A stretch of 64,000 nucleotides of DNA from an uncultured bacterium (lineage in GTDB: Bacteria; Patescibacteriota; JABMPQ01; CAVVCK01): assembly GCA_963746775.1 (NCBI GenBank), contig CAVVCK010000002.1, positions 367,592 through 431,591 of the forward strand, in the 5' to 3' direction. Each line of letters starts with the position of its first letter. Positions within the stretch are counted from its first letter, which is position 1. Under the pieces are notes generated by a model. That model was not told where the DNA came from. It did not search any database and saw nothing but the letters and a program-made list of their open reading frames with translations. The translations under genes were made by a program, and so were the position numbers. Below, in pieces: positions 6,474-61,878 of the stretch.

Positions 6474-6965
6474 CTATAAATCCTTAATTCCTTTTTCTTT
6501 TCTTATTTTCTCCCATTCTTTTTCTACTACTTTTAAATGCCTATCGGTATCTGTCCTTAATTTATCTAATAAATCTTTTAAATATTGTATATCTGTACTG
6601 ACAATTTCAAAGCATTTATTTTCCAAAAATGAACTTTCTATTATTCTAGCGATAGATATAGCATCTAATATACCAAAATCTTTTTTATCCACCTTTTTCA
6701 TGCTTTCTTCAATTTGATCACTAAAATAATCAACACTGTTAATAATTTTCTTACTTTGCGTAAAATAAACTTTTCCGTCTAACATTTCACCAGCTATTCT
6801 CCTAATCCAAGCAGCATGCCTTAATTCTTCTCCAGCAATATTTTTCCAGAATTTACTATAATCCTCAAATTTCCTGGCAAATTTTTTATATAACTCACTC
6901 AGTCTCTCTTCATTAGAAGCCATTTTCTTTAATGTTTCTATTTGTTTGTCTTTACTCTTAACCAT
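6474..6965 (-). CDS. Ferritin-like/rubrerythrin-like four-helix-bundle protein (tandem paralog 1)
   Basis: 163 aa; E...EELRH...E...DRH pattern reminiscent of diiron ferritin-like helices; strongly similar to the neighbouring ORF. Confidence 0.4.
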   Translation of the reverse strand: MVKSKDKQIETLKKMASNEERLSELYKKFARKFEDYSKFWKNIAGEELRHAAWIRRIAGEMLDGKVYFTQSKKIINSVDYFSDQIEESMKKVDKKDFGILDAISIARIIESSFLENKCFEIVSTDIQYLKDLLDKLRTDTDRHLKVVEKEWEKIRKEKGIKDL

Positions 6966-6985: not shown

Positions 6986-7471
6986 TTAATTTTCTAAACC
7001 CTCTTCTCTTCTAAGTTTTTTCCATTCCTCCTCTACTTGATGTAAATGATCTTGAGTAGCTTTTTTTAATCTATTTAGTAAATCCTCAAGTTCAGGAGAA
7101 TTTGATTTAACAATCTCAAAACATTTATTTTCCAAAAGTGAGCTTTCCAATATTCTGGAAATAGAAATAGCGTTGATTAGTTTAAAATTTTTATTATCCA
7201 TTTCTTTCATGCTTTCTCTGACTTGATCAGTAAAATATTCAATCCCCGTAACCATTAAACTATCCTGATTATATAATACGCTTCCTTCTCTTATTTTATT
7301 GCTTAAATCCCTTATCCAGTCAGCGTGATCCACTTCTTCATAAGCTAAATGCTGCCAAAATTCTGTATGCGTTTTAAATTTTTTCGCAAAAGATTGGTAA
7401 AGCTCGCTTAAAAGCTCTTCATTAGAAGCCATTTTTTCTAATATTCCCAATTGTTTGTCCTCTTTATTCAT
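6986..7471 (-). CDS. Ferritin-like/rubrerythrin-like protein (tandem paralog 2)
   Basis: 161 aa; MASNEELLSELY...EEVDHADWIR; paralog of 6474..6965. Confidence 0.4.
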   Translation of the reverse strand: MNKEDKQLGILEKMASNEELLSELYQSFAKKFKTHTEFWQHLAYEEVDHADWIRDLSNKIREGSVLYNQDSLMVTGIEYFTDQVRESMKEMDNKNFKLINAISISRILESSLLENKCFEIVKSNSPELEDLLNRLKKATQDHLHQVEEEWKKLRREEGLEN

Positions 7472-44270: not shown

Positions 44271-45161
44271 TTATTTAATCTCCCCAGCTATTAAACTTGC
44301 CACCGATAATACCTTAATCTTCCCAAAATTCTTCTCTTTTGGCAAGTAAATACTGTCAGTTATTATAATTTCATCTATTTTACTCTTTTGTAATTTCAAA
44401 GCAGCCTTCCCTGATAAAACTCCATGAGTACAAGCAAAAATAATGGATTTAGCTCCTTTTTGTTTCAGAATAGTTGCTGCTTTCATTAAAGTTCCACCTG
44501 TATTTATTTCGTCATCTAGAATTATTACATTTTTATCCTTAATTTCACCAGTTAATTCCATTTTAGCTACTCTATCATGTTTTCTCTCTCTTGATTTTTT
44601 TATATAGCAAGCATCAAAACCTAGTTTCTTAGCTAATTTATTATTTATTCCAAATGCACCCTCATCGGGAGCAACTACTATCGTATCTTTTAATTTTTTA
44701 TTTTTAAAATAATCCACAAACAAATCAAAAGCAGTTATATGTTTAAATGGTATTTTGAAAAATTTTTCAACTTTTTCAGTATGTAGATCTAATACTATTA
44801 ATTTATTAACTCCACTAGCTTTTAATAACTTGGCGCATAATTCAGAAGTAATTGCCTCTCCACTCTCAACTTTTCTTTCCTGCCTTCTATAAGGATAAAA
44901 AGGTAAAATAACTGTGATTTTCTTTGGTTTAAGTCTTTGTAGCGCATCTACAATTATTAAAAGTTCCATTAGATTCTCATTAGCAGAATTTGAGCCTGAT
45001 TGTAGGATATAGCAATCATCCCCTTTGACATTTTCCTTAACATTCACATAAGTCTCCCCGTCAGAAAACTTCTTAATATTAATTTTAGCTAGTTTAATTT
45101 TTAGTTCCCTAGCTATTTTTTGCGCTAAAGGTTTATTTGATGTTCCAGAAAATAACTTCAT
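44271..45161 (-). CDS. prs: Ribose-phosphate pyrophosphokinase
   Basis: 296 aa; PRPP synthetase pattern (MKLFSGTSNKPLAQKIA..., PRPP-binding loop DDEINTGGT). Confidence 0.85.
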   Translation of the reverse strand: MKLFSGTSNKPLAQKIARELKIKLAKINIKKFSDGETYVNVKENVKGDDCYILQSGSNSANENLMELLIIVDALQRLKPKKITVILPFYPYRRQERKVESGEAITSELCAKLLKASGVNKLIVLDLHTEKVEKFFKIPFKHITAFDLFVDYFKNKKLKDTIVVAPDEGAFGINNKLAKKLGFDACYIKKSRERKHDRVAKMELTGEIKDKNVIILDDEINTGGTLMKAATILKQKGAKSIIFACTHGVLSGKAALKLQKSKIDEIIITDSIYLPKEKNFGKIKVLSVASLIAGEIK

Positions 45162-53097: not shown

Positions 53098-53956
53098 TTA
53101 TTTTATAAACATAGACAATAAATATCCTAAAATACACCCAAAAGCAATTGGCGGCAGAGCAGCCACTGGTTTCCTTGTCTTAGTTATGTAGAAATAAAGA
53201 TAAATTAAGTTAACTCCTAAAAAAGCTCCAAATATTACAAAGAATGAAGAGACTACATTATCTTTTATTAATGAAACAGAAAAAATAAGTGGAAAAGCTA
53301 GGTCTCCTGTTCCTAAATAAAAATTATTACCTTTAGTATCAATACTTTGATCTTTTATTTTAGCACTTAAATTTTTAAAACTTGAAGGAATAATTAGAGA
53401 AAATATAGCCCCACCGCGAGCCATATTTTTAAACATAGAAACCATATGACCACTAAAATGCACCGCAATCACATCATAAATTGACAATATTATTAATAAT
53501 ATTAAAACTTGTGTACTGGATAATCCTAAACCTAAATAAACACTAGCCCCAATAATAGAAATTATAATAGCTAAATTTTGAGTTAAAATATTTGGGTAAA
53601 AATATCTTAATAGTGGCAGAGTAATAGATAAAATAAGCGTTAAATAAATAGGCAAAAAAGTATCAAAAAAAACTAAACTACCGAAGAATATCATAATATA
53701 AAAAAACACTCCGAAGATGCCTTTTCTTTTTTATAATTTTAGTTAAAATAAACAAAACAGCCGTACCAATAAAAAAGGCTACTAAAAAATTTACCAGCGA
53801 TATATCCTGCTCTACTATCGTTTCTTTCATTTCAGGAATACTATATAAAACCCAAGCAGTATATAGTCCTAAAAATTGAGTTGTTAAAAATATAATTGAT
53901 TCAATGATAAAAAAAGATGATGATAGGTTTGATTTTTTTGTGTTTTTATTTTTCAT
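53098..53956 (-). pseudogene. Presenilin/signal-peptide-peptidase-like intramembrane aspartyl protease (A22/DUF1119-like), split by a frameshift in a T7 homopolymer near 53695-53706
   Basis: ORFs 53678..53956 (2 TM) and 53098..53709 (7 TM) overlap in different frames. The downstream part carries SIYDVIAV (YD), YLGTGDLAFP (GxGD) and AALPPIAFG (PAL-like). A single base change within gttttttta merges them into a ~295-aa, 9-TM protein. Confidence 0.45.
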
Positions 53957-54505: not shown

Positions 54506-54916
54506 TCAAAACACGTCTTCACTAATTTTCCGTTTCTCTTTTTTTATTGACCTTTCTTTTTTTTCTTTCAACCTTCTCTTAACTGATCCTCTAGTCGGTT
54601 TTGTCGGCACTCTTTTCTTTACAGATTTAATTGCCATATTAATCAAACTATTAAATTTATCAATTACCTCTACCCTATTTTGCCATTGCTGCCTCTCACT
54701 CTGAGAATAAAGAATTAAATTTCCCTGCTTATCAATTTTATTTTTCAAATTTATAAATACTCTTCTCTTCTGTTCTTCGTTTAAAAAAGTGGAATTAATA
54801 ATATTCCACTTCAGAGTTACTTTTGTTGAAACCTTATTAACATTCTGCCCACCTTTGCTAGAAGATCTGGAAAAAGTTAATGCATATTCATTTTCTGGAA
54901 TAGTAATTTTATTCAT
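54506..54916 (-). CDS. arfB: Peptidyl-tRNA hydrolase ArfB (alternative ribosome-rescue factor B, GGQ domain)
   Basis: SRSSSKGGQNVNKVSTKV GGQ motif plus a basic C-terminal tail. Likely start MNKITIPE (54916); the track ORF extends to 54982 through a repeat element. Confidence 0.7.
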   Translation of the reverse strand: MNKITIPENEYALTFSRSSSKGGQNVNKVSTKVTLKWNIINSTFLNEEQKRRVFINLKNKIDKQGNLILYSQSERQQWQNRVEVIDKFNSLINMAIKSVKKRVPTKPTRGSVKRRLKEKKERSIKKEKRKISEDVF

Positions 54917-54956
54917 ATTAGTATAATTCGTATGTATTAGTATATTAGCATCGCAT

Positions 54957-56039
54957 CTAGTATCGAAGTAATGCTCCAACATTGCCTAATTTTTCTAACT
55001 CTTCACTCTCTTGTACAAACTCCACTTTCCCACCCTGCGCTATTACTTGCTGCACTAATTCATCAATTACATCCTCCACTTCTTCTTTATTATTCTCACA
55101 TTGCTTACAATCATCTTTTTTATAAATCAACTTATCACAATTTGTACAAATATAGCCCGGTTTCTGCAAGCCTTCTTTTACAATTAATTTCATAATTTTC
55201 TTCTCAAAAGAAACTTGCAGCACTTCGTCTAAACCCGAGACTGCCTTATTCCCATCACCTAAATTTTCTTTTAATAATTGGACTTGTTCTTTTTCTTTTT
55301 CTCTTTCAACTTTTTCTTCAATTTTCAATGATTGTTCTAAAAAATGTTGATCATTTTCAAACATTTCTGTGTAGAAATCACCAACTAATTTATCTTTTAA
55401 ATCATTGTGTAATAATTTTTCAAATTCTACCATTGCTTCTTTTGTCCCTCCAATAATTAATCGATCAAAATCTTTTTCTCTAAAATAGTTATAAGCTCTA
55501 TCAGCTACTTCTTTTAAATTTTTATGTTCGATAGCATTAATGTGCCCCTGAAATCTTTTTTGAGATGATCCGCCTTTTTTATGCTTACCTGGAAATTCAT
55601 TAAAAACATTAGTTATATCTTCAATCTCACCCAAATAAACTGAAAATATTTTTGCTTTTTCTTTATCTACCACAATTGTGCAATATCTTTCGTATTCATC
55701 AAACATAGCAAATAATGGTTTTAAGTGTAGGTTATTTTCTATATGAATTTGATTAGAAAATGGCTTATTCAGCTTATAACTATAAGCAATATCTTCTCTG
55801 GGATTTAGGAAAAATACTACCCCTTTGGATTTTTTGTCGGGAACTAATCTAGCTTGATCTAAGACTAATTTATAATTTTCTTCTCCAATTATTTCTTTGG
55901 ATTTTTTAAGTAAATTTTTTAAATTTATTAAAATTTTCTCCGGAGTATTATATTTTTGATCGGCATTTAAATAAAGACTGATAGTCGGGGTATTTGTTTT
56001 AATTTTATTAAGTTCTTTTAGTTCTTCTTGGGTAATCAT
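54957..56039 (-). CDS. eRF1/Pelota(Dom34)-like three-domain protein (bacterial eRF1-like, baeRF1) with inserted C4 zinc ribbon
   Basis: 360 aa; central-domain loop FPGKHKKGGSSQKRFQ aligns with eRF1 KHGRGGQSALRF but has S in place of the catalytic Q; C-terminus GNVGALLRY matches the eRF1/Pelota end motif; CTNCDKLIYKKDDCKQC zinc ribbon. Confidence 0.55.
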   Translation of the reverse strand: MITQEELKELNKIKTNTPTISLYLNADQKYNTPEKILINLKNLLKKSKEIIGEENYKLVLDQARLVPDKKSKGVVFFLNPREDIAYSYKLNKPFSNQIHIENNLHLKPLFAMFDEYERYCTIVVDKEKAKIFSVYLGEIEDITNVFNEFPGKHKKGGSSQKRFQGHINAIEHKNLKEVADRAYNYFREKDFDRLIIGGTKEAMVEFEKLLHNDLKDKLVGDFYTEMFENDQHFLEQSLKIEEKVEREKEKEQVQLLKENLGDGNKAVSGLDEVLQVSFEKKIMKLIVKEGLQKPGYICTNCDKLIYKKDDCKQCENNKEEVEDVIDELVQQVIAQGGKVEFVQESEELEKLGNVGALLRY

Positions 56040-56143
56040 TTAGAGTTAATTTATTTAATAATATATACATCTTACCATATTTTAAGGTTTTTTTCAATCG
56101 CATCTTTACACTTTTATTTTTAAACTTTAAACTTATATAATAA

Positions 56144-56214
56144 GCGGGATTGGTATAGTGGCAGAATGCAACCTTCCCAAGGTTGAGACACGAGTTCGAT
56201 TCTCGTATCCCGCT
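56144..56214 (+). tRNA. tRNA-Gly (anticodon CCC)
   Basis: Acceptor stem GCGGGAT/ATCCCGC, T-arm GTTCGATTC, anticodon stem CAACC/GGTTG with loop TTCCCAA. Confidence 0.8.
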
Positions 56215-56333
56215 TATTATAAAAAATAAATGAGTTCGCCAGGTTATTCAACCTGGCGCCAGGTCGGATGACCAGGCGATTCTCGTATCCCGCTTTTATT
56301 TTAATTATTTATTTTTTTATATTTTTAATCATT

Positions 56334-56406
56334 GCCACCTTAGCTCATCTGGTAGAGCGATGGTATCGTAAACCATAGGTAGCCAGTTCGACTCTGGCAG
56401 GTGGCT
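56334..56406 (+). tRNA. tRNA-Thr (anticodon CGT)
   Basis: Acceptor stem GCCACCT/AGGTGGC, D-loop AGCTCATCTGGTAGAGC, anticodon loop ATCGTAA, T-arm GTTCGACTC. Confidence 0.8.
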
Positions 56407-56539: not shown

Positions 56540-56959
56540 CTATTTAAGAGCGAAAAAATAATTCCACCACCTTTTACCATTAGATATTTCTTGAGCATTT
56601 TCATCCGATTTAAAAGTTGAACCCTGATCTTCATCATCCGCAGCTAATCCTGGCTCAACTGCTACTGCTACCTCTCCATCTTTCTGTAAACCTAAATTCT
56701 GTCTGGCTTGAATCTCTTTAAATGAATCTGTGTTTAAATAATCAACCAGAGCTTGCATTTCATGGTTTTTCCTCTCTAGTTCTTCAATTTGTTGCTTAAC
56801 CGTATCTATTTCTTGATTTATTTGATATCTTCTATAAATTTCCTTGCCCAAAGCAATAGATACAAATATTAAAACTACCATTCCCACTAATGTTATAAGT
56901 TTATACAATGTCCTTCTTCTTTGTGTTTTAATTTTTCGAGCTAATGGTCTTTCACTCAT
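56540..56959 (-). CDS. FtsB/DivIC-like septum formation initiator
   Basis: 139 aa; single TM followed by a coiled coil (QINQEIDTVKQQIEELERKNHEMQALVDYLNT). Confidence 0.5.
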   Translation of the reverse strand: MSERPLARKIKTQRRRTLYKLITLVGMVVLIFVSIALGKEIYRRYQINQEIDTVKQQIEELERKNHEMQALVDYLNTDSFKEIQARQNLGLQKDGEVAVAVEPGLAADDEDQGSTFKSDENAQEISNGKRWWNYFFALK

Positions 56960-57575
56960 CTGATTTTATTTCTTTTATGTTAAAATCGTTTTTTATTTCT
57001 TCTTTATTTTCCTCTAATTTATTCTTAATAATTTCATCTTTATTTTGCTCTAAAAAGTCAATTAACTCCTGAGCTGATATATCTTTTTTAGTTTTACTAT
57101 GTAAATCCATAATTATTTCTTGCACTTCTTTCGGCTTTTCAATAGCAGCCATTTCCAACAAATTATTATTAGAGGCAGTCATTACTTTTACTGTACCATA
57201 ATTAAATAAAGATGCCAGTAACCCATTAATCTCATAAGTAACATCTTGGATGCTAGAAATACCGCTCTCTGATACTGTTCTGGCAAATAATGTTTTTTGG
57301 TCTATATTAACAATACGTAAATTGGTAATAATAAAATGATCAAAATACCAACATACCCATTGGTATAGACCATAGCCAAGCCCAATAGATACCCAAACAA
57401 AAAAAATAATTATTCCTATATAATTTGCAAATAGAAAAGCACTTAATAAGAATGGAAATAAAAGTATTAAAAATGTTTTGCATAATGGCCAAACAAAACT
57501 CGCCCAATGCTTTCTGACAACTCTTATTACTTCTTCCCCTTCTTTTAAATCTTGTGAAAAATAATCTTTAAACAT
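56952..57575 (-). CDS. Membrane protein with bacterial PH (YdbS/YdbT-like) domain
   Basis: 207 aa; two TM helices then a bPH-like domain. Confidence 0.45.
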   Translation of the reverse strand: MFKDYFSQDLKEGEEVIRVVRKHWASFVWPLCKTFLILLFPFLLSAFLFANYIGIIIFFVWVSIGLGYGLYQWVCWYFDHFIITNLRIVNIDQKTLFARTVSESGISSIQDVTYEINGLLASLFNYGTVKVMTASNNNLLEMAAIEKPKEVQEIIMDLHSKTKKDISAQELIDFLEQNKDEIIKNKLEENKEEIKNDFNIKEIKSDE

Positions 57576-57852
57576 ATAATATTAATAAGTCGATATCAAT
57601 ATACGAATTGATACTAATAATACTAATAAAATATATTCGTATAATTCGTATATATTAATATATTAGCATCAAAACAATGAAACAAAAAACTGTTAAAAAA
57701 ATTACAACAATCGGTTTGGTAATAATTACCTGTCTTTGTATGATTATTTGGTTAATCTTTCCTTTATTCAAATAAATTGATACCAATATGCTAATTAATA
57801 CAAATGAATCATTCGTATAATTCGTATGCATTAGTATATTAGCATTGCACAG

Positions 57853-59646
57853 TTATTTCTTCAACACTTCAATAAAGGCACTAGATGGAATATTAACTCT
57901 ACCCATAGCTTCCATTCTCTTTTTACCTTTCTTTTGTTTTTTAAGTAATTTATCTTTACGAGTTCTATCCCCTCCATATAATTTGGCTGTAACATCTTTC
58001 CTAACAGCTGAGATATTTTCACGAGCAATAACTTTCCCATTAATAGATGCTTGTAGAGATACTTGGAAGTTTTGTCTTGGCAAAACTTCTTTTAATTTTT
58101 TAAGCATACTTCTCGATTCTTGCATTGCCTTCTCTCTAATAAGAATTCTAGAAAAGGCTTCTACTTCATCTCCAGCAATTAAAATATCTACTTTTACTAA
58201 ATCAGCTGGTCTATAATCTTTTATTTCATAAGATAGCGAAGCATAACCAGAAGAAACTGATTTTAATTTATCATAAAAATCTCCCGTCATAGAAGCAAGC
58301 GGCATTTCATAATGTAGGATTGTCCTAGTTTCTTCCTTGCCCGAAACTAAATATTCACTTGATAAATATGTTCCTCTGGATTTTTTTACTAATTCTGTAA
58401 TAGAACTTAAATATTCAACTGGAGTGATAACATCTATGGCTGCCCAAGGTTCAGATATCTCCAGAATTTCGGTTGGATCAGGTAGTTCCTGGGGTGTGTG
58501 GATTACATAAGTTTCTTTATTTTTTTTGGTAATTTTAAATTTTACTTGAGGAGATGTTACTACTAAATCCAAACCAAATTCACGCTTAAGTCTTTCCTGG
58601 ATTATTTCTAAATGCAAAAGTCCTAAAAATCCACACTTGAAACCTCGCCCCAGTGTTGCTGAACTTTCCGGTTCATAGGTCAAGGAGGCATCATTCAAAC
58701 TTAATTTAGCTAGACCATCTTTTAAATCATCAAATTGATCAGCATCCTCAGGATAAAAAGTAGTAAATATGATCGGCTCCATTTTTTTATAGCCTGGTAA
58801 AGGTTTTTCGCATTTAATTGATGCCAGGGTATCCCCCACATGACAATCTTTCATGTCTTTAAGGCCGGTTACCACATAGCCTACTTCCCCTGCTTTAATT
58901 TCCGGCTTTGATTGCATTTTTGGTTTAAAGAAGCCAACATCAAGTACATCAAATTCTTTACTTGTAGCCATTAATCTAACTTTGTCACTTTTTTTTACAC
59001 TTCCCTCAAATACTCTGACATAAGTAATTACACCCTTAAAATCATCGTAGACAGAATCAAATATTAACGACTTTAATTCGTTCCCTTCTACTGCTTTAGG
59101 CGATGGAACTTTATCAATTACTACTTTCAAAAGTTCCTTTACTCCTGTTCCATCCTTAGCACTTACTTCATATATTTCATTTTCTTTACATCCCAGGACT
59201 CCAATAATTTCATTTTTAACTTTTTCTGGATTAGCATTAGGTAAATCAATTTTATTTATAACTGGAATTATTTCCAAATTATGTTCTACGGCTTGATATA
59301 AGTTAGCTAAAGTTTGCGCTTGAATCCCTTTGGTCGCATCAACAACTAATAAAGCTCCCTCACAACAAGCAAGACTGCGTGATACTTCATAACCAAAATC
59401 AACATGTCCAGGAGTATCAATTAAATTTAGGACATATCCTTCGTAATCCATTCGAACAGGTTGTAATTTTATAGTTATTCCTCTTTCCCTCTCCAAATCC
59501 ATCGAATCTAAATACTGTTCTTTCATATCACGGCTTGCCACAGTATTGGTCAATTCCAAAAAGCGATCAGATAGCGTTGATTTGCCATGATCAATATGGG
59601 CAATGATGCAGAAATTGCGGATTTTTTTTAAATAATCTTTATTCAT
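57853..59646 (-). CDS. lepA: Elongation factor 4
   Basis: 597 aa; AHIDHGKSTL, DTPGHVDF, NKIDL G-domain motifs and the LepA-specific C-terminal domain. Confidence 0.9.
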   Translation of the reverse strand: MNKDYLKKIRNFCIIAHIDHGKSTLSDRFLELTNTVASRDMKEQYLDSMDLERERGITIKLQPVRMDYEGYVLNLIDTPGHVDFGYEVSRSLACCEGALLVVDATKGIQAQTLANLYQAVEHNLEIIPVINKIDLPNANPEKVKNEIIGVLGCKENEIYEVSAKDGTGVKELLKVVIDKVPSPKAVEGNELKSLIFDSVYDDFKGVITYVRVFEGSVKKSDKVRLMATSKEFDVLDVGFFKPKMQSKPEIKAGEVGYVVTGLKDMKDCHVGDTLASIKCEKPLPGYKKMEPIIFTTFYPEDADQFDDLKDGLAKLSLNDASLTYEPESSATLGRGFKCGFLGLLHLEIIQERLKREFGLDLVVTSPQVKFKITKKNKETYVIHTPQELPDPTEILEISEPWAAIDVITPVEYLSSITELVKKSRGTYLSSEYLVSGKEETRTILHYEMPLASMTGDFYDKLKSVSSGYASLSYEIKDYRPADLVKVDILIAGDEVEAFSRILIREKAMQESRSMLKKLKEVLPRQNFQVSLQASINGKVIARENISAVRKDVTAKLYGGDRTRKDKLLKKQKKGKKRMEAMGRVNIPSSAFIEVLKK

Positions 59647-60092: not shown

Positions 60093-61878
60093 ATGAAAAC
60101 TAGAAATATAGCCATTATCGCTCATGTAGATCACGGCAAAACCACCCTCACAGACGCCCTAATGCAGCAAACTGGTGTAGCCAGCGCAGATATCACTATG
60201 GATACCGATATTATGGAAAAGGAGAGAGGAATTACAATTTATTCCAAAAATACCAGTATTTTCTATAAAGATACTAAAATAAACATAGTTGATACTCCGG
60301 GACACGCTGATTTCGGCTCGGAAGTAGAACGTGTTTTACGCTCTATTGATTCTGTTTTACTCCTAGTAGATGCCCAAGAGGGACCAATGCCTCAGACTAA
60401 ATTTGTTTTGAAAAAATCTCTGGAATTAGGATTAAAACCAATTGTAGTTATTAATAAAATAGACAAGCCAGCCGCCAGACCCAATGAGGTGAATGATATG
60501 GTCCTAGAATTATTCATGGATTTAAAAGCCTCAGATGAACAACTTGATTTTAAAACCATTTATACTATTGCCAAACAAGGGATAGCTAAACATAAGCTAG
60601 AAGATGAATCAAAAGACCTAACTCCCCTGCTTGATTTGATTATGGAAAATGTGAAGCCAGCCTCAAGCGAAGAGTTATCAAATAAGAAACTTTTATTCCA
60701 ACCTTTTAACCTAGCTTATGATAATTTTTTGGGCCGTTTGGCAATTGGTAGAATATATGAAGGTAAAATAAAAGATACTCAAAGTGTTATTATAAAAAAC
60801 AAAGACAAGGTAAGATCTGGGCGACTAACAAAATTATTTACTTTCTACGGATTAGAAAGACGCGAGGCAAAAATTGCGGAAGCTGGAGATATAGTTATGA
60901 TTGCTGGTCTTCCAGAAATTTTTATTGGCGAAACAGTTTGTGAAGATGAAAATCAAGAAACTCTACCCAGTATTGATATTGATGAGCCAACCATCTCACT
61001 AAATTTCCTAGTAAATGATTCCCCTTTTGCAGGACAGGAAGGTGACAAAGTAACTACCCGACAAATTAGAGAAAGATTAGAAAAAGAATTAGAAGTAAAT
61101 GTGGGTTTAAAAATAGATTTTTCCAATAATGATTATTATAAAGTATATGGCCGTGGTGAATTGCATATCACTATTCTACTTGAAAACATGAGAAAAAAGG
61201 GCTATGAAGTTCAGGTCTCTGAACCACAAGTTATTATAAAAGAAAAAGATGGCCGTAAATTAGAGCCTTTTGAAGAGGTAACTATCGACGTCCCCAATAA
61301 TATGTTCTGGCACCATTATTGAAAAAATGGCTAAAAGAAAAGGTGAAATGATTGATATGCAGCAAGAAGAAAATCAAACTAGAATGATTTTCCATATTCC
61401 AACCAGAGGACTCCTAGGATATCGAGGAGAATTTATTATGGATACTAGAGGAGAAGGAATATTATGTTCCAGAGTGTTAGGATTTAAACCACACGTTGGA
61501 GAGATAAAGAAACACAAAGTAGGTTCTATGATTTCTATGGAAAATGGCAAAGCTCTAGCATATTCTTTATTTAATTTACAAGATAGAGGCAAATTATATA
61601 TTAATGCTAACACTGAAGTATATGAAGGCATGGTTATCGGTAATACCTCTAAAGGAGTAGATATTCCAGTTAATCCAATTAAAGGAAAACACTTAACTAA
61701 TATGCGAGCCGCCAGCGCTGATGATGCTATGATTTTAAAAGCTTCTCAAGAAATAAACATTGAAAGAGGTTTAGAAATAATGAAAGATGATGAATATTTA
61801 GAAATTACACCGAAAAACGTCAGGTTAAGAAAAAAGTATTTGAGTGAATTAGATAGAAAAAGACATAATAGAAAATAA
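60093..61878 (+). pseudogene. typA: Translational GTPase TypA/BipA interrupted by a +1 frameshift near 61300-61306 (ORFs 60093..61322 and 61327..61878)
   Basis: [22 protein letters not shown] motifs. The reading frame switches between ...IDVPNNMF and GTIIEKMAKRKGEMIDMQ. Removing one T from gttctgg restores a colinear ~595-aa TypA. Confidence 0.8.

What the first reader, a model, noticed from the sequence alone, without database searches (positions are those of the whole stretch)
54506..56039. Adjacent ribosome-rescue pair: GGQ hydrolase ArfB and an eRF1/Pelota-like protein lacking the catalytic glutamine
54957..56039 has the eRF1/Pelota three-domain architecture: a central-domain loop KHKKGGSSQKRFQ aligned to the eRF1 GGQ loop, and a C-terminal GNVGALLRY. 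The catalytic Q is replaced and a C4 zinc ribbon is inserted. It is immediately followed by arfB (GGQ present). This suggests a split recognition and hydrolysis rescue module, or a Pelota-like splitting factor co-regulated with ArfB. Bacterial eRF1-like proteins are rare and functionally uncharacterised.
Basis: partly seen in the sequence, partly recalled or inferred. Interest (0 to 1): 0.7.

Follow-up and report, generated by a model that had tools for sequence, protein, structure and literature searches.

The report
Balon-like ribosome factor beside ArfB
A tiny-genome (Patescibacteria-type) bacterium carries a bacterial copy of the archaeal/eukaryotic release-factor fold that has lost its catalytic glutamine and most resembles the ribosome hibernation factor Balon; the rescue enzyme ArfB next to it is a recent neighbour in this lineage, not a conserved partner.

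Summary
Both genes are real. 54957..56039(-) encodes a 360-aa three-domain aeRF1-like protein. It scores 99.5 bits on Pfam baeRF_family10 (cutoff 27.1) and gives a confident AF2 model (pLDDT 86.5). Its best structural matches are ribosome-bound Balon hibernation factors (TM 0.72-0.84), ahead of aRF1/eRF1 (~0.58) and Pelota (<0.45). Ser158 sits exactly on eRF1's catalytic Gln. Family-wide that position is Trp (95 of 151 representatives) and almost never Gln, while Gly-Gly is retained. The stop-codon motifs NIKS, YxCxxxF and GTS are absent, and the N-domain is Balon-type. The C4 zinc ribbon is not an insertion: it is the ancestral aRF1 ribbon, kept in 141 of 151 relatives.

ArfB is ordinary, with a true start probably at 54916 (136 aa). 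The pairing occurs only in close, fully syntenic relatives (>=64% identity). None of about 16 more distant loci has it. Many of those have an uncharacterised phosphoribosyltransferase directly downstream instead, and some sit beside HtrA, DnaJ or Clp stress genes.

Best reading: a stop-codon-independent A-site-binding hibernation/protection factor, possibly co-transcribed with ArfB. The "split rescue module" and "Pelota-like splitter" ideas are not supported. Bacterial aeRF1-like proteins are neither rare nor wholly uncharacterised. This is a new member of a known kind.

The parts
54957..56039 (-). Gene for a 360-aa three-domain bacterial aeRF1-like protein (baeRF-1 family 10; Balon-like)
   Evidence: ORF. 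Pfam PF18854 99.5 bits, eRF1_2 41.8, eRF1_3 31.8. AF2 pLDDT 86.5, pTM 0.82. Foldseek top hits are Balon 8v9j/8v9l/8rdw/8v9k.
55689..56039 (-). N-terminal domain (about residues 1-117), Balon-type. It carries the conserved SLYLN.D motif (residues 21-27) and LHLKPL (104-109), and has no NIKS, GTS or YxCxxxF.
   Evidence: The N-domain profile hits Msmeg1130 at E=3.3e-12 and P. urativorans Balon at 4e-4, but eRF1/aRF1 only at E~1. Motif alignment; conservation.
55545..55592 (-). PTC-facing loop FPGKHKKGGSSQKRFQ (residues 150-165). Gly-Gly is retained and Ser158 stands in place of the catalytic Gln.
   Evidence: Ungapped alignment to the aRF1/eRF1 GGQ loop. Across the family this position is Trp in 95/151 and Gln in 4/151. 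The codon is TCA. Model pLDDT is below 50 for residues 152-158.
55098..55148 (-). C4 zinc ribbon (C298-x2-C301 ... C311-x2-C314) inside the C-terminal (eRF1_3/Pelota-type) domain
   Evidence: Read directly from the sequence. CCCC in 141/151 representatives. Aligns to the Cys-rich segment of archaeal aRF1 4af1 and to the Cys-less beta-hairpin site of Msmeg1130 Balon.
54506..54916 (-). arfB: 136-aa alternative ribosome-rescue peptidyl-tRNA hydrolase. GGQ is at 54845..54853 and there is a basic C-terminal tail. The mechanical ORF extends upstream to 54982.
   Evidence: NF006718 130.8 bits against cutoff 100, aligned from residue 22. Full-length matches to ArfB 4v95 and to ICT1. Orthologues are 134-137 aa.
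56069..56097 (-). Promoter-like site (TTGAAA-17-TAAGAT with a TG extension) upstream of the baeRF gene. This is a consensus match only.
   Evidence: Such matches are not enriched over shuffles in this AT-rich region (14 found against 11.1+/-3.4 expected). tRNA genes on the opposite strand at 56143-56406 separate the gene from the upstream divIC-like gene, so a new transcription unit must start here.

Best explanation
The 360-aa protein is a member of the bacterial aeRF1-like clade (baeRF-1 family 10). I infer that it binds the ribosomal A site independently of stop codon and mRNA, as the Balon hibernation factors do.

The proposed arrangement on the ribosome is:
- The Balon-type N-domain contacts the decoding centre.
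- The middle-domain Gly-Gly loop points at the peptidyl-transferase centre but lacks the hydrolytic Gln (Ser here, Trp in most relatives).
- The C-domain, with its intact zinc ribbon, faces the translational GTPase (EF-Tu in Balon complexes).

The most likely role is to occupy and protect idle or paused ribosomes during stress or dormancy.

The downstream gene is a normal ArfB that releases peptides from ribosomes stalled on truncated mRNA. The two genes are probably co-transcribed in this lineage. However, ArfB is a recent neighbour: it joined an older baeRF-phosphoribosyltransferase pair, and the transferase was later lost. It is not an obligate partner.

*Shown:* family membership, fold, motif status, and the phyletic pattern of the gene neighbourhood. 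*Inferred:* ribosome binding, the hibernation role, and co-transcription.
For: **Family and fold**
- PF18854 scores 99.5 bits against a cutoff of 27.1.
- The AF2 model is confident.
- Foldseek ranks ribosome-bound Balon structures first: 8v9l TM 0.84, 8v9j 0.82, 8v9k 0.79, 8rdw 0.73. aRF1/eRF1 score about 0.58.
- The family profile's best PDB hit is Msmeg1130 Balon at 8.8e-27.
- The N-domain profile hits only Balons.

**No stop-codon reading and no catalytic Gln**
- The NIKS site is a gap, YxCxxxF is replaced by E.NLHLKPL, and GTS is absent.
- The Gln position is Ser here and Trp/other in 147 of 151 relatives.
- In the window's subclade the loop plus the following helix (residues 151-195) is the least conserved part of the protein, at 0.61-0.78 identity against a mean of 0.82. 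That is unlike a catalytic loop.

**Stress-type context elsewhere**
- HtrA + DnaJ + BON, HtrA + Clp ATPase, PCMT. This is the kind of neighbourhood reported for Balon (PMC10901736).

**ArfB**
- Above the curated cutoff, with full-length matches to solved ArfB/ICT1.

**Pairing**
- Present in L011-L016 only.
- Absent in L001-L010 and L017-L024.
- The order baeRF-PRTase-ArfB in L015/16 shows the intermediate state.
Against: - Scores against the three curated Balon-family models are far below cutoff: 80.8/330, 70.5/480 and 44.5/320.
- Several Balon hallmarks are missing or different. There is no His-Pro at either candidate position. The loop has eRF1-like length, not an extended lasso. A true C4 ribbon stands where Balon has a Cys-less beta-hairpin that is said to disfavour EF-Tu-GTP.
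- The Gly-Gly pair, which is the part of GGQ most critical for catalysis in release factors (my recollection of the literature), is retained. The surrounding PGKH..GG.SQ.RF is strikingly aRF1-like. Residual or altered hydrolase activity therefore cannot be excluded.
- No HPF/RaiA neighbour was seen in any locus examined.
- No experimental data exist for any family-10 member that I could find.
Confidence: 0.55

Rival explanations
1. It is a catalytically competent, stop-codon-independent peptidyl-tRNA hydrolase. The retained Gly-Gly backbone positions water in the PTC despite the Gln-to-Ser/Trp change, so the protein is a second rescue or release activity alongside ArfB.
For: GG is retained in 108/151 relatives, and the flanking PGKH..GG.SQ.RF is nearly identical to aRF1. 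Loop length is eRF1-like. Burroughs & Aravind singled out family 10 as possibly active (PMC6514570). From memory, Gln substitutions in bacterial RFs and eRF1 reduce hydrolysis less than Gly substitutions do.
Against: Gln is essentially never present at the canonical position (4/151). A bulky Trp is the consensus. In the window's subclade the position drifts through S/F/L/W, and the following R-F is lost in several close relatives, which is inconsistent with a conserved active site. An ordinary ArfB is already present.
Confidence: 0.15
2. One reading: baeRF and ArfB form a two-part rescue module. The Gln-less aeRF1-like protein recognises the stalled ribosome and ArfB supplies hydrolysis.
For: Same strand, 40-nt gap, no terminator-like site predicted between them. 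The pair is retained in five sampled relatives. In L015/16 ArfB overlaps the end of the preceding gene, consistent with one operon.
Against: All pair-bearing loci are close relatives that share the whole neighbourhood (LepA-bPH-DivIC-...-Big_5-SPP-ABC), so retention is explained by synteny. The pair is absent in ~16 more distant loci. In L015/16 a PRTase lies between the two genes. ArfB is a self-sufficient single-component rescue factor (PMC6514570; PMC7427801 abstract). Both proteins would need the same A site.
Confidence: 0.05
3. It is a Pelota/Dom34-like factor that promotes subunit splitting of stalled ribosomes.
For: It lacks the catalytic Gln, as Pelota does. There is weak profile similarity to Pelota over the middle domain (3j15 E=1.6e-6).
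Against: The N-domain is an alpha/beta aRF1/Balon-type fold, not an Sm-like barrel. Pelota TM is 0.28-0.44 against 0.72-0.84 for Balon. The baeRF-1 clade branches with aeRF-1, not Dom34 (PMC6514570). The ABCE1 partner needed for splitting is, to my knowledge, not a bacterial protein.
Confidence: 0.05
4. Its primary function is tied to the TT1426-like phosphoribosyltransferase that is its commonest immediate neighbour in Patescibacteria. It might be a nucleotide/PRPP-responsive or ribosyl-modifying translation control pair. The window lineage would then carry a degenerate remnant after losing the transferase.
For: The PRTase lies 2-134 nt downstream in L002, L004 (two copies), L006, L009, L015/16, L017, L018 and L019. 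The window subclade has lost it, and it also shows relaxed conservation of the PTC-facing loop.
Against: The PRTase family is far more widespread than this pairing (>7,700 homologues) and is functionally uncharacterised (PDB 1wd5 'hypothetical protein'). The pair is absent in L001, L003, L005 and in all non-Patescibacteria loci examined. The window protein is still full-length with highly conserved N- and C-domains.
Confidence: 0.1

Closest known systems
Balon ribosome hibernation factors (P. urativorans AOC03_06830; M. smegmatis Msmeg1130; M. tuberculosis Rv2629; PDB 8rd8, 8v9j, 8v9k)
   Same: Three-domain aeRF1-derived bacterial protein. It is the best global structural match (TM 0.72-0.84). 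The N-domain is Balon-type, including the shared SLY.N.D strand-loop with Msmeg1130. NIKS and the catalytic Gln are absent. The C-terminal G..GA.LR[YFW] motif is shared.
   Different: Only 14-17% identity, and far below all three NCBIfam Balon cutoffs. It keeps Gly-Gly and an eRF1-length loop instead of a lasso loop. It keeps a C4 zinc ribbon where Balon has a Cys-less beta-hairpin. No HP dipeptide at the aligned positions. No RaiA/HPF neighbour was seen.
Archaeal aRF1 / eukaryotic eRF1 class-I release factors (for example 4af1, 1dt9)
   Same: The middle-domain loop is nearly identical around GG (PGK..KGG.S..RF). The C-domain has the zinc ribbon at the same site as archaeal aRF1. The C-terminal ..GG/A.LRY motif is shared.
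   Different: Gln is replaced (Ser here, Trp across the family). NIKS, YxCxxxF and GTS are absent. The N-domain is not detectably aRF1-like by profile (E~1). TIGR03676 scores 96 bits against a cutoff of 234.7.
baeRF-1 family 10 (Pfam PF18854; Burroughs & Aravind 2019)
   Same: It scores well above the gathering threshold and has the full three-domain architecture described for the clade.
   Different: The 2019 paper describes family 10 as retaining a well-conserved Gln typical of active families. In my alignments the canonical Gln position is Trp/other. The conserved Gln (Q160 here) lies two residues downstream.
ArfB/YaeJ and mitochondrial ICT1 (the downstream gene)
   Same: GGQ hydrolase domain plus a basic C-terminal tail. 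Above the curated NCBIfam cutoff, with full-length alignment to solved ArfB/ICT1.
   Different: Nothing notable, except that the mechanical ORF has a 22-codon upstream extension that is probably not translated.

Membership tests
baeRF-1 family 10 (PF18854) | Profile score above the Pfam gathering threshold | tested here: met
   99.5 bits against 27.1, E=2.7e-28, profile positions 2-137 of 143.
baeRF-1 family 10 (PF18854) | Three-domain aeRF1 architecture (N-domain, RNase-H-fold middle domain, Pelota-type C-domain) | tested here: met
   eRF1_2 and eRF1_3 are above cutoff. The AF2 model has three confident domains. Full-length alignments to aRF1/eRF1/Balon.
baeRF-1 family 10 (PF18854) | Well-conserved catalytic-type Gln in the loop, as described in PMC6514570 | tested here: not met
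   The canonical position is Ser158 here, and Trp in 95/151 and Gln in 4/151 relatives. A conserved Gln (Q160) lies at +2.
Balon-type ribosome hibernation factors (NCBIfam NF052287 / NF052288 / NF052289) | Score above the curated family cutoffs | tested here: not met
   80.8/330, 70.5/480 and 44.5/320 bits.
Balon-type ribosome hibernation factors | Overall fold matching ribosome-bound Balon | tested here: met
   Foldseek ranks 1-5 and 17 are Balon chains: TM 0.72-0.84, E as low as 2.9e-26.
Balon-type ribosome hibernation factors | Absence of the NIKS and GGQ motifs | tested here: met
   NIKS aligns to a gap. Gln is replaced by Ser. Gly-Gly is retained, unlike in the solved Balons.
Balon-type ribosome hibernation factors | HP motif contacting the decoding centre | tested here: inconclusive
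   The paper gives no residue numbers. Candidate HP dipeptides are 'EHP' in P. urativorans Balon and 'IHPL' in Msmeg1130. They align to N25-A-D-Q28 and to K107-P108-L109 in the window protein. Neither is His-Pro.
Balon-type ribosome hibernation factors | Lasso loop / bL27 trap in the middle domain | tested here: not met
   The loop has the same length as the eRF1 GGQ loop, with no insertion. Some other family-10 members do have long Gly/Arg-rich loops.
Balon-type ribosome hibernation factors | Cys-less beta-hairpin insertion in the C-domain that contacts EF-Tu | tested here: not met
   The same insertion site carries a C4 zinc ribbon (C298/C301/C311/C314), aligned to the Msmeg1130 hairpin segment.
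Balon-type ribosome hibernation factors | Binds the ribosomal A site of idle or translating ribosomes with EF-Tu | not testable with these tools
   Requires biochemistry or cryo-EM.
aRF1/eRF1 class-I release factor (TIGR03676) | Score above cutoff, GGQ, and NIKS/YxCxxxF/GTS stop-codon recognition motifs | tested here: not met
   96.1 bits against 234.7. Gln is replaced and all three N-domain motifs are absent. The N-domain profile does not hit aRF1/eRF1.
Pelota/Dom34 | Sm-like beta-barrel N-domain (eRF1_1-type) with loop A entering the mRNA channel | tested here: not met
   No eRF1_1 hit. The model's N-domain is mixed alpha/beta with long helices H33-45 and H48-64. Pelota TM is 0.28-0.44.
ArfB (NF006718), downstream gene | Score above cutoff, GGQ motif, and a basic C-terminal helix/tail | tested here: met
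   130.8 bits against 100. GGQ at 54845..54853. Tail KKRVPTKPTRGSVKRRLKEKKERSIKKEKRK. Full-length alignment to 4v95 ArfB.

The most novel reading that the evidence does not exclude
The 'GGW + zinc-ribbon' branch of bacterial aeRF1-like proteins may be mechanistically distinct from Balon. It would be a release-factor mimic that is delivered like aRF1 through its intact ribbon-bearing C-domain. It would fully insert an eRF1-length Gly-Gly loop into the peptidyl-transferase centre. There the Trp would cap or stack on the P-site tRNA CCA end or on A2602, either to block hydrolysis or to give altered, stop-independent hydrolysis. In Patescibacteria it would act together with a TT1426-like phosphoribosyltransferase. 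The window's lineage, which has lost the Trp and the transferase and gained ArfB next door, would then record a hand-over of the peptide-release step to ArfB.
Probability: 0.15. Interest if true: 0.65.

Novelty: new member of a known kind. Interest (0 to 1): 0.35.

Why it matters
Patescibacteria (CPR) have minimal genomes and reduced ribosomes, and how they silence and protect ribosomes is little studied. This locus shows they carry a Balon-related factor of an archaic type that still looks like archaeal aRF1 in its Gly-Gly loop and zinc ribbon. No member of this branch has been characterised.

That is a useful pointer for work on ribosome hibernation and on how release factors were repurposed. 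The consensus Trp at the catalytic-Gln position and the recurrent phosphoribosyltransferase neighbour are concrete, testable leads.

As a finding about a 'rescue pair', however, it is largely explained by known families and by local synteny.

Tried and rejected
1. **Family-wide locus search.** Searching reference genomes with the 60-sequence alignment failed because no stretch was conserved enough. A narrower 24-sequence alignment worked but returned only 10 loci.
2. **ArfB in related loci.** I looked for ArfB-like ORFs within +/-5 kb of every related locus by phmmer. There were none outside the window's subclade.
3. **Defence-system role.** PADLOC gave no hit for the baeRF protein or ArfB. 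It gave only weak generic PRTase hits.
4. **HP motif.** I tried to locate Balon's HP motif from the paper text, but no residue numbers are given. This membership row therefore stays inconclusive.
5. **AFDB fold search.** The library was unavailable.
6. **Model coordinates.** They are not exposed to scripts. I could not measure Cys-Cys geometry or superpose the loop on eRF1. The loop equivalence rests on ungapped sequence/profile alignment.
7. **Literature.** Searches for a baeRF-PRTase link, or for Balon in Patescibacteria, found nothing relevant.
8. **S158 as a sequencing error.** Rejected. The codon is TCA, two changes away from TGG, and close relatives also vary at this position.
9. **PRTase homologue search**. 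It only showed that the family is very large and generically named, and added little.
Full report
**1. The observation**

The larger protein scores 99.5 bits on Pfam baeRF_family10 (gathering score 27.1). It is also above threshold on eRF1_2 (41.8) and eRF1_3 (31.8), with no eRF1_1 hit.

The smaller protein is ArfB: NCBIfam NF006718 scores 130.8 bits against a cutoff of 100. It aligns full-length to solved ArfB and ICT1. The ArfB match begins at residue 22, and orthologues are called at 134-137 aa. The true start is therefore most likely the ATG at 54916, 40 nt after the baeRF stop codon.

The window has about 30% G+C. The protein's close homologues are annotated as coming from Parcubacteria/Patescibacteria metagenome-assembled genomes.

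**2. Anatomy of the aeRF1-like protein**

*Model.* With a 60-sequence alignment, AlphaFold2 gives a confident three-domain model (pLDDT 86.5, pTM 0.82). Only residues 152-158, the Gly-Gly loop, are disordered.

*Structural neighbours.* Foldseek against the PDB ranks ribosome-bound Balon hibernation factors first:

| Structure | TM-score |
|---|---|
| Msmeg1130 Balon (8v9l / 8v9j) | 0.84 / 0.82 |
| Rv2629 Balon (8v9k) | 0.79 |
| P. urativorans Balon (8rdw / 8rd8) | ~0.73 |
| aRF1 / eRF1 | ~0.58 |
| Pelota | 0.28-0.44 |

*By sequence the picture is mosaic.* The single sequence hits Halobacterium aRF1 best (4af1, 2.8e-11), then Msmeg1130 (3e-8). The family profile reverses that order, at 8.8e-27 and 4.3e-21.

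*Catalytic loop.* The profile alignment puts 'efpgkhkqGGwSqkRF' on eRF1 'dlpkkhgrGGQSalRF' without gaps. The window's Ser158, and the family's consensus Trp, therefore occupy the catalytic-Gln position.

*Stop-codon elements.* None of the eRF1 elements is matched. NIKS falls in a 4-residue gap, YxCxxxF corresponds to E.NLHLKPL, and GTS is absent.

*N-domain.* A profile of the N-domain alone finds Msmeg1130 (3.3e-12) and P. urativorans Balon (4e-4). aRF1/eRF1 appear only at E~1. The N-domain is therefore Balon-type, including the nearly invariant SLYLN.D strand-loop shared with Msmeg1130's VSLYFNADP.

*Zinc ribbon.* C298/C301/C311/C314 align to the Cys-rich segment of archaeal aRF1. They also align to the Cys-less hairpin segment of Msmeg1130. 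This fits Burroughs & Aravind's statement that the ribbon is ancestral in aeRF-1, and that many bacterial families carry a two-strand remnant at the same site (PMC6514570). It is retained rather than inserted.

**3. The family**

The word-indexed search found 379 homologues:
- a Patescibacteria clade at 41-88% identity (P0002-P0042);
- a wider set at 30-35% identity in Nitrospirota, Anaerolineales and others.

The exhaustive profile search found 9,446 50%-identity cluster representatives at E<=1e-3, and 1,694 at E<=1e-30. Bacterial aeRF1-like proteins are therefore not rare.

Among the 151 most similar representatives:

| Feature | Count (of 151) |
|---|---|
| Gln position = Trp | 95 |
| Gln position = Arg | 9 |
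| Gln position = Phe | 8 |
| Gln position = Leu | 6 |
| Gln position = Gly | 5 |
| Gln position = Ser / Met / Gln | 4 each |
| Gly-Gly kept | 108 |
| All four Cys kept | 141 |

A Gln two residues downstream (GGW-S-Q) is conserved in the Patescibacteria clade. This may be what the 2019 paper meant by a 'well-conserved glutamine' in family 10. By alignment it is not the catalytic one.

Within the window's closest relatives (P0001-P0008), position 158 drifts through S, F, W and L. The loop plus the following helix is the least conserved part of the protein, while the N- and C-domains are the most conserved. The Ser codon is TCA, two substitutions from TGG, so it is not a simple sequencing error.

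**4. Is the ArfB adjacency meaningful?**

*Local layout.* tRNA-Gly and tRNA-Thr genes lie on the opposite strand upstream of the baeRF gene. A new transcription unit must therefore start there, and a promoter-like site is present. No terminator-like site lies between baeRF and arfB. Co-transcription is plausible but untested.

*Across relatives.*
- Loci at 74-77% identity (L011-L014) have the same pair. They also share the whole neighbourhood: BipA, LepA, bPH, DivIC, baeRF, ArfB, Big_5, SPP, ABC.
- At 64% identity (L015/16) the order is baeRF, a 214-aa phosphoribosyltransferase, then ArfB.
- At <=53% identity there is no ArfB within +/-5-6 kb in any of L001-L010 and L017-L024.
- Instead, the PRTase lies directly downstream in L002, L004 (two copies), L006, L009, L017, L018 and L019.

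*Most economical history.* An older baeRF-PRTase pair acquired ArfB downstream in one lineage and then lost the PRTase. The pair is thus explained by shared ancestry of a small clade, not by repeated selection for adjacency. ArfB is described as a single-component factor without conserved partners, apart from a pseudouridine synthase in proteobacteria (PMC6514570).

**5. Context outside Patescibacteria**

- One unclassified bacterium has DnaJ and an HtrA-type protease upstream and a BON-domain protein downstream.
- An Anaerolineales member has HtrA upstream and a Clp ATPase downstream.
- Another locus has protein-isoaspartate methyltransferase 10 nt upstream.
- A Nitrospirota locus is uninformative.

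These resemble the stress-response settings reported for Balon genes, which include chaperones, OsmY and RaiA (PMC10901736). I saw no RaiA/HPF neighbour.

**6. Interpretation**

The best-supported reading is a stop-codon-independent, non-hydrolytic A-site ligand of the Balon kind, that is, a ribosome hibernation or protection factor. ArfB is an ordinary rescue hydrolase that happens to share a transcription unit with it in this lineage.

A loose functional logic is possible: ArfB clears non-stop complexes and the factor then occupies the vacated A sites. This is speculation.

The protein is not a curated Balon-family member. All three NCBIfam models are far below cutoff, and it differs in three hallmark elements: loop, hairpin and HP motif. 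I therefore file it under baeRF-1 family 10 and say it most likely works like Balon.

Gly-Gly and the aRF1-like loop context are retained. From memory, the glycines matter more than the Gln side chain for release-factor catalysis. I therefore keep a hydrolase rival at about 0.15.

The Pelota-like and split-module ideas each get about 0.05, for the reasons given in the rival explanations.

**7. Novelty and score**

The fold, the family (Pfam, 2019) and a function for its relatives (Balon, 2024) are all known. What is new here is modest:
- a Patescibacteria member of an uncharacterised, aRF1-like 'GGW + ribbon' branch;
- an unusual Ser at the Gln/Trp position;
- a lineage-specific ArfB neighbour;
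- a previously unremarked recurrent PRTase neighbour.

Interest is 0.35, as a new member of a known kind.

Noticed in passing
L015:2132-2776, L017:7082-7717, L018:5675-6313, L019:1979-2626; also L002, L004 (two tandem copies), L006, L009: A ~212-aa TT1426-like phosphoribosyltransferase lies immediately downstream of the baeRF gene (2-134 nt away) in many Patescibacteria relatives. It is PF00156, with PDB 1wd5 'hypothetical protein' at E=1.6e-41 and no NCBIfam above cutoff. It is missing from the window's subclade, and the only PRTase-fold gene in the window is PRPP synthetase at 44271..45161(-). The association is not mentioned in the main text of the 2019 baeRF paper.
   Followed up: partly
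window 60093..61878 (+): The BipA/TypA GTPase gene is split into two ORFs (409 + 183 aa). tblastn with the intact 593-aa orthologue from L011 switches frame at about 61294-61304. This is either a real frameshift or an assembly error.
   Followed up: partly
window 53098..53956 (-): The presenilin/signal-peptide-peptidase-like membrane protease gene is also split (92 + 203 aa). The frame switch is at about 53723-53727, close to a run of T. Orthologues are single ORFs of 285-294 aa.
   Followed up: partly
window 56143..56215 and 56334..56406 (+): tRNA-Gly(CCC) and tRNA-Thr(CGU) genes lie on the opposite strand, between the divIC-like gene and the baeRF gene. They are the only tRNAs in the 64-kb window, and no tmRNA gene is present in it.
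   Followed up: no
window 56540..59646 (-) and L011, L012, L014, L017, L018: The block LepA (EF4), a bacterial-PH-domain membrane protein and a DivIC/FtsB-like protein lies upstream of the baeRF gene. It is conserved well beyond the ArfB-bearing subclade, often with a SurA-like PPIase inserted. With BipA divergently adjacent, the neighbourhood is rich in ribosome-associated GTPases.
   Followed up: partly
L022:2690-4198 and L023:137-1189 (also L024): In two unrelated non-Patescibacteria lineages an HtrA/DegP-type protease (Trypsin_2 + PDZ) sits directly upstream of the family-10 gene. DnaJ and a BON-domain protein, or a Clp ATPase, are nearby.
   Followed up: no
P0072, P0086, P0090, P0091 and similar (Anaerolineales-type relatives); P0130, P0135, P0247, P0265: Some family-10 members replace the short GGW loop with long Gly/Arg-rich loops, for example 'RMKHGRGSAAGRRGGVTGRTGRR'. 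These are reminiscent of an extended Balon-like lasso. The PTC-facing loop is therefore length-variable within one Pfam family.
   Followed up: no
window 6474..6965 and 6986..7471 (-): Two tandem paralogous ~160-aa proteins with weak rubrerythrin/ferritin-like matches that sit right at the Pfam cutoff.
   Followed up: no
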